Assembly: GCF_041248615.1 (NCBI RefSeq)
Contig: NZ_CP158426.1
DNA from: Escherichia coli
Lineage (GTDB): Bacteria > Pseudomonadota > Gammaproteobacteria > Enterobacterales > Enterobacteriaceae
Length of the DNA stretch: 64,000 nucleotides
Reading direction: 5' to 3' (one strand)
Within the stretch, counting starts at the first letter, position 1; each line of letters begins with the position of its first letter. Made by a program: the position numbers. Below are positions 9,001 to 12,000 of this stretch, piece after piece.

Positions 9001-12000
9001 TACCTAAAAAAATTAATTCCATGAGTTCATCACGTTTCAAAAAATATTCCGGCTAGTATAAGTCATACATCTAAAAGGAGAGCATTATGATTGAATGGCA
9101 AGATCTGCATCACTCTGAATTATCGGTTTCCCAGCTTTATGCCTTATTACAACTGCGTTGCGCGGTGTTTGTTGTTGAGCAGAATTGCCCTTATCAGGAT
9201 ATCGATGGTGATGATTTGACGAGGGATAATCGCCATATTCTCGGTTGGAAAAATGATGAACTGGTGGCGTATGCGAGGATTCTGAAAAGTGATGATGATC
9301 TTGATCCGGTCGTTATTGGTCGGGTGATTGTTAGTGAAGCGTTGCGTGGCGAAAAAGTGGGGCAGCAGCTGATGAGTAAAACACTCGAAACATGTACGCG
9401 TCACTGGCCTGATAAACCTGTTTACCTCGGGGCGCAGGCGCATCTGCAAAACTTCTACCAGAGTTTTGGCTTTATCCCTGTGACGGAGGTCTATGAAGAA
9501 GATGGTATCCCACACATCGGGATGGCACGCGAGGTAATTCAGGCGTAATCAATAACCCTTGTCTATAGTTAGTGACAGGTTTTACGCAAATGGAGAACGA
9601 GAATGTCTAATCAGTTTGGTGATACACGTATCGATGATGACCTGACGCTGCTTAGTGAAACACTGGAAGAGGTGCTCCGCTCCTCTGGCGATCCCGCCGA
9701 TCAGAAATATGTTGAGCTGAAAGCGCGTGCAGAAAAAGCGCTGGATGATGTGAAAAAACGGGTTAGCCAGGCTTCAGACAGTTATTACTATCGGGCGAAG
9801 CAGGCTGTTTATCGTGCTGATGACTACGTCCACGAAAAACCCTGGCAAGGAATTGGTGTGGGCGCGGCCGTTGGGCTGGTACTAGGACTGTTGCTGGCAC
9901 GCCGTTAAAACCTCCCTACACCGGGGTACTGCATTTTTTTTGTAGTACCCCGTATAATGTGAGGCTTTTAACAGGGAGAGGTCCGCGTGCAATCACTTAC
10001 TACGGCGCTGGAAAATCTACTGCGCCATTTGTCGCAAGAGATTCCGGCGACACCCGGCATTCGGGTTATCGATATTCCTTTCCCTCTCAAAGACGCTTTT
10101 GATGCCTTGAGCTGGCTGGCTAGTCAGCAAACGTACCCGCAATTCTACTGGCAACAACGTAATGGTGATGAAGAAGCTGCCGTCCTGGGCGCGATTACCC
10201 GTTTTACGTCGTTGGACCAGGCACAACGTTTTCTTCGCCAGCACCCGGAACACGCCGACTTACGCATTTGGGGGCTGAATGCGTTTGACCCGTCGCAGGG
10301 TAATTTACTTTTACCACGCCTCGAATGGCGACGTTGTGGCGGTAAAGCCACGCTGCGGCTGACGCTATTCAGCGAAAGCTCCCTTCAGCATGATGCGATT
10401 AAGGCAAAAGAATTTATCGCCACACTGGTGAGTATTAAACCCTTGCCTGGGTTACATTTAACCACCACCCGAGAACAACACTGGCCGGACAAAACGGGCT
10501 GGACGCAATTAATCGAACTGGCAACGAAAACCATCGCCGAAGGTGAGCTCGACAAAGTGGTGCTTGCTCGGGCAACTGACCTGCATTTCGCAAGTCCGGT
10601 CAATGCGGCAGCGATGATGGCTGCCAGTCGTCGGCTCAATCTGAATTGCTACCATTTTTACATGGCCTTTGATGGCGAAAATGCTTTTCTTGGTTCTTCA
10701 CCGGAACGGTTATGGCGGCGGCGTGACAAAGCGCTGCGTACCGAAGCGCTGGCGGGAACGGTAGCAAATCATCCTGATGATAAGCAGGCGCAGCAGTTAG
10801 GTGAGTGGCTGATGGCGGATGATAAAAACCAGCGCGAGAACATGTTGGTGGTGGAGGATATCTGCCAACGATTACAGGCCGATACCCAAACGCTGGATGT
10901 TTTACCGCCGCAGGTACTGCGTCTGCGTAAAGTGCAGCATCTTCGCCGCTGTATCTGGACTTCACTCAACAAAGCGGATGATGTGATCTGTTTACATCAG
11001 TTGCAGCCAACGGCAGCAGTTGCTGGCTTACCGCGCGATCTGGCGCGACAGTTTATCGCCCGTCACGAACCGTTCACCCGAGAATGGTACGCCGGTTCTG
11101 CGGGCTATCTCTCTTTACAACAAAGCGAATTCTGCGTTTCCCTGCGCTCAGCAAAAATCAGTGGCAATGTCGTGCGACTATATGCTGGCGCGGGCATTGT
11201 CCGTGGTTCCGACCCCGAGCAAGAGTGGCAGGAAATCGACAACAAAGCGGCAGGGCTGCGTACTTTATTACAAATGGAATAGTAATGAGTCGCATCATTA
11301 CCGATTCATATCAATAATCTATTTCTGTAGCTCCTTATACTTAGCCGCAATATTGATACCGGACAAACTCATGTCAGTAAGCGCATTTAACCGACGCTGG
11401 GCGGCGGTCATTCTGGAAGCATTAACGCGTCACGGCGTCAGACACATCTGTATCGCCCCTGGCTCGCGTTCTACACCGTTAACGTTAGCGGCGGCGGAGA
11501 ATTCCGCATTCATTCACCACACCCATTTCGATGAGCGTGGACTGGGGCATCTGGCGCTGGGGCTGGCGAAAGTCAGCAAGCAGCCGGTGGCTGTGATTGT
11601 GACCTCCGGCACGGCGGTAGCAAATCTCTATCCTGCACTGATTGAAGCTGGGTTAACCGGAGAAAAACTGATCCTGTTAACCGCCGATCGCCCGCCGGAG
11701 CTAATTGACTGCGGCGCGAATCAGGCGATTCGTCAGCCGGGAATGTTCGCCTCTCACCCCACGCACAGTATTTCACTGCCGCGCCCGACCCAGGATATCC
11801 CCGCACGTTGGCTGGTTTCTACCATCGACCACGCTCTCGGTACGCTTCATGCTGGTGGAGTCCATATCAACTGCCCGTTTGCTGAACCGCTGTATGGCGA
11901 AATGGACGACACCGGGCTTAGCTGGCAACAGCGTCTGGGCGACTGGTGGCAGGACGATAAGCCGTGGCTGCGTGAAGCGCCTCGTCTGGAAAGTGAAAAA

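What the first reader, a model, noticed from the sequence alone, without database searches (positions are those of the whole stretch)
9922..9958. elaB terminator hairpin abutting the menF -10 element
The CGGGGTACT...AGTACCCCG hairpin is immediately followed by TATAAT, 28 bp upstream of the menF GTG start. This suggests terminator-promoter overlap, so menF transcription may depend partly on read-through from elaB.
Basis: seen in the sequence. Interest (0 to 1): 0.2.

Follow-up and report, generated by a model that had tools for sequence, protein, structure and literature searches.

The report
Leaky elaB terminator overlapping menF promoter
In E. coli the hairpin that ends the elaB message sits directly on top of the promoter of the vitamin-K2 (menaquinone) operon. 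Published transcript maps already show a leaky stop, a new start 10 bases later and read-through, so the arrangement is real but of an ordinary kind.

Summary
Window 9922-9952 is a 12-bp stem with a U7 loop (-21.9 kcal/mol, z -6.7). It is followed at once by TATAAT (9953-9958), 28 nt before the menF GTG. The window is E. coli, and this spacer is identical to K-12 MG1655.

Published maps support most of the interpretation:
- Term-seq places an elaB 3' end at window 9956, inside TATAAT; the table has three entries across three growth conditions.
- SMRT-Cappable-seq finds the same end. Ten reads stop there and 16 read through, with a median extension of 199 nt.
- The same study reports a start site at window 9966 for menF-menD(-menH) transcripts.

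The hairpin is not a canonical intrinsic terminator, because its tail is UAUAAUGU, and the promoter has no usable -35.

Across 74 Enterobacteriaceae loci elaB-menF adjacency holds, and in the 73 clean ones a -10 (CGTATAAT, or TATACT/TATAGT in some genera) lies 25-32 nt before the start. CGTATAAT is also present in Yersinia, which lacks elaB there. Some genera replace the hairpin with a canonical U9 terminator.

New and unproven: a near-invariant CUCCCU upstream of the hairpin pairs with the menF Shine-Dalgarno. Only read-through RNA carries it, so it may silence menF translation on those transcripts.

Verdict: an ordinary kind, low-to-moderate interest.

The parts
9065..9065 (+). Start site of the elaA-elaB transcripts that reach the hairpin (MG1655 2381565)
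   Evidence: SMRT-Cappable-seq Supplementary Data 1 and 2 of PMC6131387; coordinate conversion.
9603..9908 (+). elaB coding sequence (101 aa, stop TAA 9906-9908)
   Evidence: ORF list; RefSeq annotation.
9898..9902 (+). CACGC in the last elaB codons, predicted to pair with GCGUG that contains the menF start codon (9985-9989)
   Evidence: MFE fold of 9895-9990; RNAduplex. Prediction only.
9910..9917 (+). ACCUCCCU, a candidate anti-Shine-Dalgarno (core CUCCCU 9912-9917). It is present only on RNA that starts upstream of the menF promoter
   Evidence: At least 90% conserved in 45 hairpin-type sequences. Complementary to AGGGAG 9973-9978. RNAalifold places this helix in the consensus.
9922..9933 (+). 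5' arm of the hairpin (CGGGGUACUGCA)
9934..9940 (+). U7 loop of the hairpin
9941..9952 (+). 3' arm of the hairpin (UGUAGUACCCCG). As DNA it is the spacer of the menF promoter (-25 to -14)
   Evidence: AGTACCCCG is nearly invariant across genera.
9953..9958 (+). TATAAT: the -10 hexamer of the menF promoter, and as RNA the A/U-only tail directly after the hairpin
   Evidence: A -10 (TATAAT, or TATACT/TATAGT) lies 25-32 nt before the start in 73 related loci; CGTATAAT is also in Yersinia and Moellerella.
9956..9956 (+). Mapped RNA 3' end of elaB/elaAB transcripts (MG1655 2380674), 4 nt after the stem
   Evidence: Term-seq, PMC7815308 supplementary file 1, three entries. SMRT-Cappable-seq end site.
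9966..9966 (+). menF transcription start (MG1655 2380664), give or take 1 nt for coordinate convention. It is the first T of a T-run (9966-9969)
   Evidence: SMRT-Cappable-seq Supplementary Data 2: units menF-menD and menF-menD-menH.
9973..9982 (+). menF Shine-Dalgarno region AGGGAGAGGU
   Evidence: invariant GGGAG core.
9987..11282 (+). menF coding sequence (GTG start, 431 aa), first gene of menFDHBCE

Best explanation
This is the junction between the elaA-elaB transcription unit and the menFDHBCE operon of E. coli, and two signals share the same 37 bp.

Read as RNA from upstream, 9922-9952 folds into a strong 12-bp hairpin, and elaAB transcripts end 4 nt after it. It acts as a leaky, non-canonical Rho-independent terminator and/or a barrier to 3' exonucleases. 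Its tail is the A/U-only UAUAAU rather than a U-tract. About 40% of transcripts end there and about 60% continue into menF.

Read as DNA, the 3' arm is the spacer of a promoter and TATAAT is its -10 hexamer. The promoter has a consensus -10 and no -35, and it starts menF mRNA at 9966. That gives a 21-nt leader carrying the Shine-Dalgarno GGGAGAGG.

Shown by published data: the 3' end, the start site, and the existence of read-through. Inferred: that the hairpin itself causes termination, and that TATAAT is the element RNA polymerase uses.
For: - Structure: -21.9 kcal/mol, z -6.7.
- The 3' end at window 9956 is listed three times in the Term-seq table of PMC7815308 (three conditions), classed primary for elaB, with read counts of 54,111 and 221,851 in the two sheets seen.
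- The same 3' end appears in SMRT-Cappable-seq (PMC6131387): 30 reads from start site 2381565, 10 ending at the site, 16 passing it, 0 ending within 50 nt beyond.
- A start site at 2380664, 8 nt downstream of TATAAT, heads menF-menD(-menH) transcripts.
- No Rho-termination region is listed between 2380000 and 2380799 in the bicyclomycin data set.
- elaB lies next to menF in 74 of 80 related loci. A -10 (CGTATAAT, or TATACT/TATAGT) sits 25-32 nt before the start codon in 73 of them. That holds in the hairpin-type loci and in 22 loci of other genera with a different terminator.
- CGTATAAT is also present in Yersinia and Moellerella, which have no elaB upstream.
- In Buttiauxella and Cedecea a canonical hairpin plus U9 ends 15 nt before TATAAT. 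The terminator-on-promoter architecture is therefore kept even where the sequence is replaced.
Against: - The tail after the stem (UAUAAUGU) fails the U-tract rule, and the scan did not call this hairpin a terminator.
- A 3' end at +4 from the stem is closer than typical release sites (7-9 nt by general knowledge), so trimming from a more distal end is possible.
- No -35 is recognisable (TGCATT or CTGCAT, 2 of 6), there is no extended -10 TG, and the promoter scan found nothing.
- The start site rests on one data set that I could read, and it is a pyrimidine.
- The hairpin core is invariant, so there is no covariation for or against an RNA role.
- The SMRT-Cappable-seq read numbers are small (26 informative reads, M9 medium only).
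Confidence: 0.8

Rival explanations
1. The hairpin is not a terminator. Transcription ends further downstream, either by Rho inside untranslated menF RNA or at the weak GAGG-CUUUU site at 9961-9969. 3'-to-5' exonucleases then trim back to the stable stem, which only marks and protects the mature elaAB 3' end.
For: There is no U-tract. The 3' end is only 4 nt after the stem. Read-through transcripts extend a median of just 199 nt, as expected if they are cut short inside menF. An outer helix AAAACCUC/GAGGCUUUU is predicted around the hairpin. Trimming of Rho-terminated RNAs back to stem-loops is the subject of PMC6061677, whose title I saw but whose data I could not read.
Against: No Rho-termination region is listed at 2380000-2380799 in the bicyclomycin data. 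Zero reads ended in the 50 nt beyond the site. The outer CCUC/GAGG helix is not conserved outside Escherichia.
Confidence: 0.3
2. The inverted repeat GGGTACTG-N11-CAGTACCC is primarily a DNA operator for a dimeric transcription factor sitting over the -35 and spacer region of the menF promoter (centre about -29). The LuxR-type regulator SdiA is one candidate. On this view the RNA hairpin is a by-product.
For: Both arms are almost invariant across genera whose loop and flanks vary freely, which is unusual for a plain terminator stem. PmenFDHBCE reporters are SdiA-regulated: 1.8 to 2.7-fold up in Salmonella and 105-fold down in E. cloacae, independent of AHL (PMC11619404).
Against: RNA 3' ends map to the hairpin. 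The E. coli menF reporter showed no SdiA regulation although the repeat is intact. Whether SdiA acts directly is unknown and no SdiA consensus exists. The spacing is CTG-N11-(C/T)AG, whereas from memory lux-type boxes have N10. CCCCGTATAAT is conserved in Yersinia without the partner arm. G-U-type departures outnumber A-C-type ones 11 to 5, which slightly favours plus-strand RNA pairing.
Confidence: 0.15
3. A chance palindrome next to a chance TATAAT, with no function.
For: TATAAT-like hexamers are common in AT-rich spacers, and the consensus promoter scan reported no promoter here.
Against: z = -6.7 with 0 of 200 shuffles folding as well. RNA ends map to both features. Both features are conserved across dozens of species.
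Confidence: 0.01

Closest known systems
Rho-independent (intrinsic) terminators of E. coli, in particular leaky or non-canonical ones with imperfect U-tracts
   Same: A stable GC-rich stem-loop at the end of a gene, RNA 3' ends mapped just after it, and partial read-through.
   Different: There is no U-tract; the tail is UAUAAUGU and the only U-run lies in the loop. The 3' end is at +4. Related genera (Buttiauxella, Cedecea) have a textbook hairpin plus U9 at the same place.
Tandem operons joined by a terminator that overlaps the next promoter, giving read-through operon variants as catalogued by SMRT-Cappable-seq (PMC6131387)
   Same: The 3' end of the upstream unit and the start site of the downstream unit are 10 nt apart. 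The elaA-elaB-menF read-through variant is listed in that study.
   Different: Here the same six bases are both the terminator tail and the -10 hexamer. The study lists the sites but does not discuss this junction, and I found no paper that does.
Sigma-70 promoters with a consensus -10 and no recognisable -35
   Same: A perfect TATAAT with a start site 8 nt downstream.
   Different: No extended -10 TG compensates for the missing -35. The -35 and spacer region is occupied by a conserved palindrome and a T-run.
Anti-Shine-Dalgarno sequestration, as in riboswitch expression platforms and translationally coupled genes
   Same: A CU-rich element complementary to the Shine-Dalgarno is conserved upstream, with clade-specific extensions that keep the pairing.
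   Different: The element lies upstream of the gene's own start site. It could act only on read-through RNA from the neighbouring operon. No ligand, partner or experiment is known.

Membership tests
Intrinsic (Rho-independent) terminator | Stable GC-rich stem-loop | tested here: met
   12-bp stem, -21.9 kcal/mol, z -6.7.
Intrinsic (Rho-independent) terminator | U-rich tract directly 3' of the stem | tested here: not met
   The tail UAUAAUGU has 4 U in 8. The scan rule of at least 5 T in 8 did not call it.
Intrinsic (Rho-independent) terminator | RNA 3' ends in vivo at or just after the hairpin | tested here: met
   Published Term-seq and SMRT-Cappable-seq end at window 9956.
Intrinsic (Rho-independent) terminator | Independence from Rho | tested here: inconclusive
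   No Rho region is listed at 2380000-2380799 in PMC7815308 supplementary file 2. Absence from a thresholded list at one growth condition is weak evidence.
Intrinsic (Rho-independent) terminator | Termination by purified RNA polymerase in vitro | not testable with these tools
   Needs an experiment.
Sigma-70 promoter | -10 hexamer close to TATAAT | tested here: met
   6 of 6 at 9953-9958. A -10 (TATAAT, or TATACT/TATAGT in some genera) is conserved in 73 related loci.
Sigma-70 promoter | -35 hexamer 16-18 bp upstream, or an extended -10 TG | tested here: not met
   Best candidates are TGCATT and CTGCAT at 2 of 6. The bases before TATAAT are CCG. The scan found 0 promoters in 9000-11000.
Sigma-70 promoter | Primary 5' end 6-9 nt downstream of the -10 | tested here: met
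   Start site 2380664, window 9966, from 5'-triphosphate-selective SMRT-Cappable-seq. This is the only data set I could read.
LuxR-type (SdiA) operator | About 20-bp dyad with CTG-N10-CAG (recalled from lux boxes, not retrieved here) | tested here: not met
   The spacing is CTG-N11-CAG, and TAG in E. coli. No SdiA consensus is established.
LuxR-type (SdiA) operator | Binding of SdiA to the site | not testable with these tools
   Only reporter-level regulation is published, and none was seen in E. coli.
Anti-Shine-Dalgarno sequestering element | Complementarity to the Shine-Dalgarno that is conserved or compensated across species | tested here: inconclusive
   The core CUCCCU/AGGGAG pairs in 93% of cells but shows no double changes. 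One flanking pair has A-U in 14 sequences and G-C in 6. The covariation score is 0.084 against 0.069 for shuffles (1 of 500 reach it) and at most 0.055 when slid. The effect in E. coli itself is small: predicted unpaired Shine-Dalgarno 0.53 against 0.65.
Anti-Shine-Dalgarno sequestering element | Reduced translation when the element is present | not testable with these tools
   Needs reporter fusions.

The most novel reading that the evidence does not exclude
The junction is a two-tier insulator between a stress operon and a housekeeping operon. The first tier is the leaky hairpin, which stops part of elaAB transcription.

The second tier is a conserved anti-Shine-Dalgarno (ACCUCCCU, 9910-9917), helped in E. 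coli by CACGC (9898-9902) pairing with the GUG start. It folds back on the menF ribosome-binding site in every transcript that escapes. Read-through RNA would therefore not be translated and would be cleared, for example by Rho or by decay about 200 nt into menF.

mRNA from the menF promoter starts at 9966, downstream of the anti-Shine-Dalgarno, and is fully open. Strong RpoS/OxyR induction of elaB would then be kept from driving menaquinone synthesis.
Probability: 0.35. Interest if true: 0.45.

Novelty: new member of a known kind. Interest (0 to 1): 0.3.

Why it matters
It gives a concrete, conserved case where six bases (TATAAT) serve both as the tail of one operon's terminator and as the -10 of the next operon's promoter.

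It also explains why elaA-elaB-menF read-through transcripts coexist with a separate menF start site in published maps.

If the anti-Shine-Dalgarno idea holds, it would show a simple way for bacteria to tolerate leaky terminators. Read-through RNA would be made untranslatable, so the downstream operon answers only to its own promoter. That matters for operon annotation and for the design of synthetic insulators.

The regulation of menaquinone synthesis in E. coli is poorly understood. This defines the core promoter region on which reported SdiA effects in related species must act, directly or indirectly.

Tried and rejected
- Rfam, all families, permissive threshold on 9000-10500: only chance snoRNA-like matches.
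- The small hairpin ACCUC...GGGGU that the terminator scan flagged at 9910-9927: rejected. It has 5 pairs and an 8-nt loop, the U-run starts 6 nt after it, and no 3' end is mapped there.
- A composite terminator (outer CCUC/GAGG helix plus CUUUU at 9965-9969): considered. The outer helix is predicted in E. coli but is not conserved in Citrobacter or Enterobacter, and no reads end there.
- A covariation test of the hairpin: uninformative because the 8-bp core never varies.
- A covariance model of the whole domain: it reproduced the MAFFT alignment and added nothing.
- The lux-box comparison: the spacing does not fit.
- Literature dead ends:
  - Thomason 2015 start-site paper not held.
  - Cappable-seq supplement has no entry in either coordinate version.
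  - Dar & Sorek supplement not held.
  - No paper discusses elaB and menF together in this sense.

Full report
**1. What is there**

The window is E. coli chromosome. The stretch 9560-10060 matches 5,421 of 5,426 complete E. coli genomes and is annotated elaB | menF. The elaB-menF spacer (9909-9986, 78 nt) is identical to K-12 MG1655. Coordinates convert as MG1655 = 2390630 - window position, on the minus strand.

The local gene order is rbn(-), elaA(+), elaB 9603-9908(+), menF 9987-11282(+, GTG start), then menD.

It has 12 pairs (9922-9933 with 9941-9952, one G-U) around a U7 loop. Its energy is -21.9 kcal/mol against -6.9 for shuffles, z -6.7, with 0 of 200 shuffles as stable. It is one of about seven comparable inverted repeats in 64 kb. 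TATAAT follows at once (9953-9958), 28 nt before the GTG.

**2. Experimental maps already in the literature**

Term-seq (Adams et al. 2021, PMC7815308, supplementary file 1) lists a 3' end at 2380674(-), which is window 9956. That is the fourth base of TATAAT and 4 nt after the stem. It is classed as the primary 3' end of elaB. It appears three times in a file that covers three growth conditions.

SMRT-Cappable-seq sequences full-length primary transcripts (Yan et al. 2018, PMC6131387). It lists the same end for transcripts that begin at 2381565 (window 9065, 22 nt before elaA). Of 30 reads, 10 end at the site, 16 pass at least 50 nt beyond it and none end in between. The median read-through is 199 nt.

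The operon table of that study gives a start site at 2380664 (window 9966) for menF-menD and menF-menD-menH units. It also lists an elaA-elaB-menF read-through unit.

The 3' end of one unit and the 5' end of the next are therefore 10 nt apart, with TATAAT between and under them. The start is 8 nt after the hexamer, a normal distance. It is a T, and no purine is available at positions 7-11 after the hexamer. I could not obtain a second start-site data set.

**3. How canonical are the two signals**

The terminator lacks a U-tract. Its tail is UAUAAUGU, and the only U-run is in the loop. The consensus scan did not call it.

An A/U-only tail gives a weak hybrid, which fits partial termination of about 40%. 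However, a 3' end at +4 is closer to the stem than usual release sites. Trimming from a slightly or much more distal end therefore cannot be excluded.

The bicyclomycin data of Adams et al. list no Rho-termination region anywhere in 2380000-2380799. That argues weakly against a Rho origin.

The promoter has a perfect -10 but no -35 (2 of 6 at best) and no extended -10 TG.

**4. Comparative evidence**

A scan of one genome per species with MenF returned 80 loci, and elaB lies immediately upstream in 74 of them.

A -10 hexamer, usually CGTATAAT and TATACT or TATAGT in Kosakonia and Trabulsiella, sits 25-32 nt before the menF start in 73 of these loci. One low-quality assembly (L078) has a mis-set start. 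L075 (Kosakonia cowanii) shows 43 nt only because the script measured to an ATG rather than the GTG.

CGTATAAT is also present before menF in Yersinia and Moellerella, where no elaB is upstream. The promoter is therefore old and independent of elaB.

Two architectures occur upstream of it:
- 52 loci (Escherichia, Citrobacter, Salmonella, Enterobacter, Lelliottia, Kosakonia, Trabulsiella, Silvania and others) have the E. coli-type hairpin abutting the -10. In Citrobacter and Enterobacter the stem even extends into the TATA of the hexamer (UAUACG...CGUAUA).
- 22 loci have other hairpins. Buttiauxella, Cedecea and Shimwellia carry a textbook terminator (AUCUUACCC-loop-GGGUGGGAU plus U9) ending about 15 nt before TATAAT. 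Atlantibacter and Franconibacter have different ones.

The terminator-on-promoter layout is thus conserved even where the sequence is not.

**5. RNA hairpin or DNA site?**

The hairpin core GGGTACTG/CAGTACCC is invariant in 45 sequences, while the loop and flanks vary. That gives no covariation either way.

Departures that still pair in plus-strand RNA (G-U) number 11. Those that would pair only on the other strand (A-C) number 5. This is a weak lean towards RNA.

Such invariance is unusual for a terminator stem. It may reflect the double load of stem plus promoter spacer. CCCCGTATAAT is also kept in Yersinia without the partner arm.

A protein operator is not excluded. Schwieters and Ahmer 2024 (PMC11619404) report that PmenFDHBCE reporters are SdiA-regulated in Salmonella (about 2-fold up) and E. 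cloacae (105-fold down), but not in E. coli. Whether SdiA acts directly is unknown, and no SdiA consensus exists. I treat this as a minor rival.

**6. A larger conserved RNA domain (new, unproven)**

Four to six nucleotides upstream of the hairpin, CUCCCU (9912-9917) is at least 90% conserved, while everything further upstream is free. It is the exact complement of the invariant menF Shine-Dalgarno core AGGGAG (9973-9978).

RNAalifold puts this long-range helix in the consensus structure together with the hairpin.

The core never shows double changes, but the flanks extend the helix differently in each clade, tracking changes in the Shine-Dalgarno:

| Clade | Anti-Shine-Dalgarno side | Shine-Dalgarno side |
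|---|---|---|
| Enterobacter | AACC | GGUU |
| Lelliottia, Huaxiibacter | GACC | GGUC |
| Salmonella | ACCCUCCCU | AGGGAGGGU |
| Kosakonia | CCCCUCCCUG | CAGGGAGGGG |
| Trabulsiella | GAACCUCCCU | GGGGAGGUUC |
| Silvania | ACCUUUCCCUGC | GCGGGGAGAGGU |

For the Enterobacter versus Lelliottia pair, one search counts A-U in 14 sequences and G-C in 6.

Formal counts are modest. The covariation score is 0.084 against 0.069 for shuffles (1 of 500 reach it) and at most 0.055 for slid partners. Duplex energies average z = -2.2 against shuffles. They beat all or nearly all other windows of the same locus in many clades. They do not in the Citrobacter freundii group, and only marginally in E. coli.

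The predicted unpaired fraction of the Shine-Dalgarno is 0.28 on read-through RNA against 0.48 on promoter-derived RNA, averaged over all loci. In E. coli it is 0.53 against 0.65. There the MFE instead pairs the GUG start with CACGC in the last elaB codons.

The anti-Shine-Dalgarno lies upstream of the start site at 9966, so only read-through RNA carries it. My inference is that read-through transcripts are poorly translated for menF and are then cut short. That would fit the 199-nt median extension.

Loci with a strong canonical terminator mostly show no such difference. Atlantibacter is an exception (0.02 against 0.37).

**7. Verdict**

The kind of feature is ordinary: a leaky terminator abutting the next promoter. 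Its parts are already in public data tables, although no paper I could find discusses the junction.

The anti-Shine-Dalgarno layer is the only part with some novelty, and it needs experiments.

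Noticed in passing
window 11349 (MG1655 2379281), in the menF-menD spacer 11283-11370: SMRT-Cappable-seq lists a further start site heading a menD-menH-menB unit, 22 nt before the annotated menD ATG (11371). 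The men operon therefore has at least one internal promoter.
   Followed up: no
window 11020-13041: The mechanical ORF list gives a 673-aa TTG ORF that is menD with a spurious 5' extension overlapping the end of menF. The annotated menD (MG1655 2377589-2379259) starts at window 11371.
   Followed up: partly
window 9966-9969 and the same place in L002-L081: A run of 3-5 T begins at or next to the menF start site (positions 7-11 after the -10) in every lineage. That includes Buttiauxella (GGGGTTTTC), Atlantibacter and Yersinia (CTCTTTC), and it is preceded by a G-rich discriminator. It could be an S1-binding leader, a distal terminator U-tract, or a site of reiterative transcription. This was not tested.
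   Followed up: no
window 9915-9960; PMC11619404: PmenFDHBCE reporter fusions are SdiA-regulated in Salmonella (1.8 to 2.7-fold up) and E. cloacae (105-fold down, independent of AHL) but not in E. coli. The invariant palindrome over the -35 and spacer region is a candidate site, but directness is unknown.
   Followed up: partly
L051:1290-1500 (Enterobacter genomosp. O); L055, L057, L076 (Buttiauxella): The elaB-menF spacer carries insertions of about 45-125 nt that fold into long hairpins (L051 spacer 211 nt, -94.5 kcal/mol). They look like small mobile palindromic elements inserted upstream of the conserved hairpin (L051) or, in Buttiauxella, upstream of the canonical terminator.
   Followed up: no
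L024 (Parasutterella muris contig) and L080 (Caballeronia, 318-bp contig): There is an Enterobacteriaceae-like menF (69% identity) on a contig assigned to a betaproteobacterium. A 318-bp contig is 99% identical to E. coli menF. These suggest horizontal transfer or assembly contamination.
   Followed up: no
window 46773-46806 and 53544-53577: Two 16-nt inverted repeats with 2-nt loops (ATGCCGGATAAGGCGT/ACGCCGCATCCGGCAT and a related one) look like REP elements.
   Followed up: no
window 9065: elaA and elaB are co-transcribed from a start site 22 nt before elaA (MG1655 2381565), listed as a novel operon relative to RegulonDB. A divergent rbn start is only 16 nt away at 2381581.
   Followed up: no
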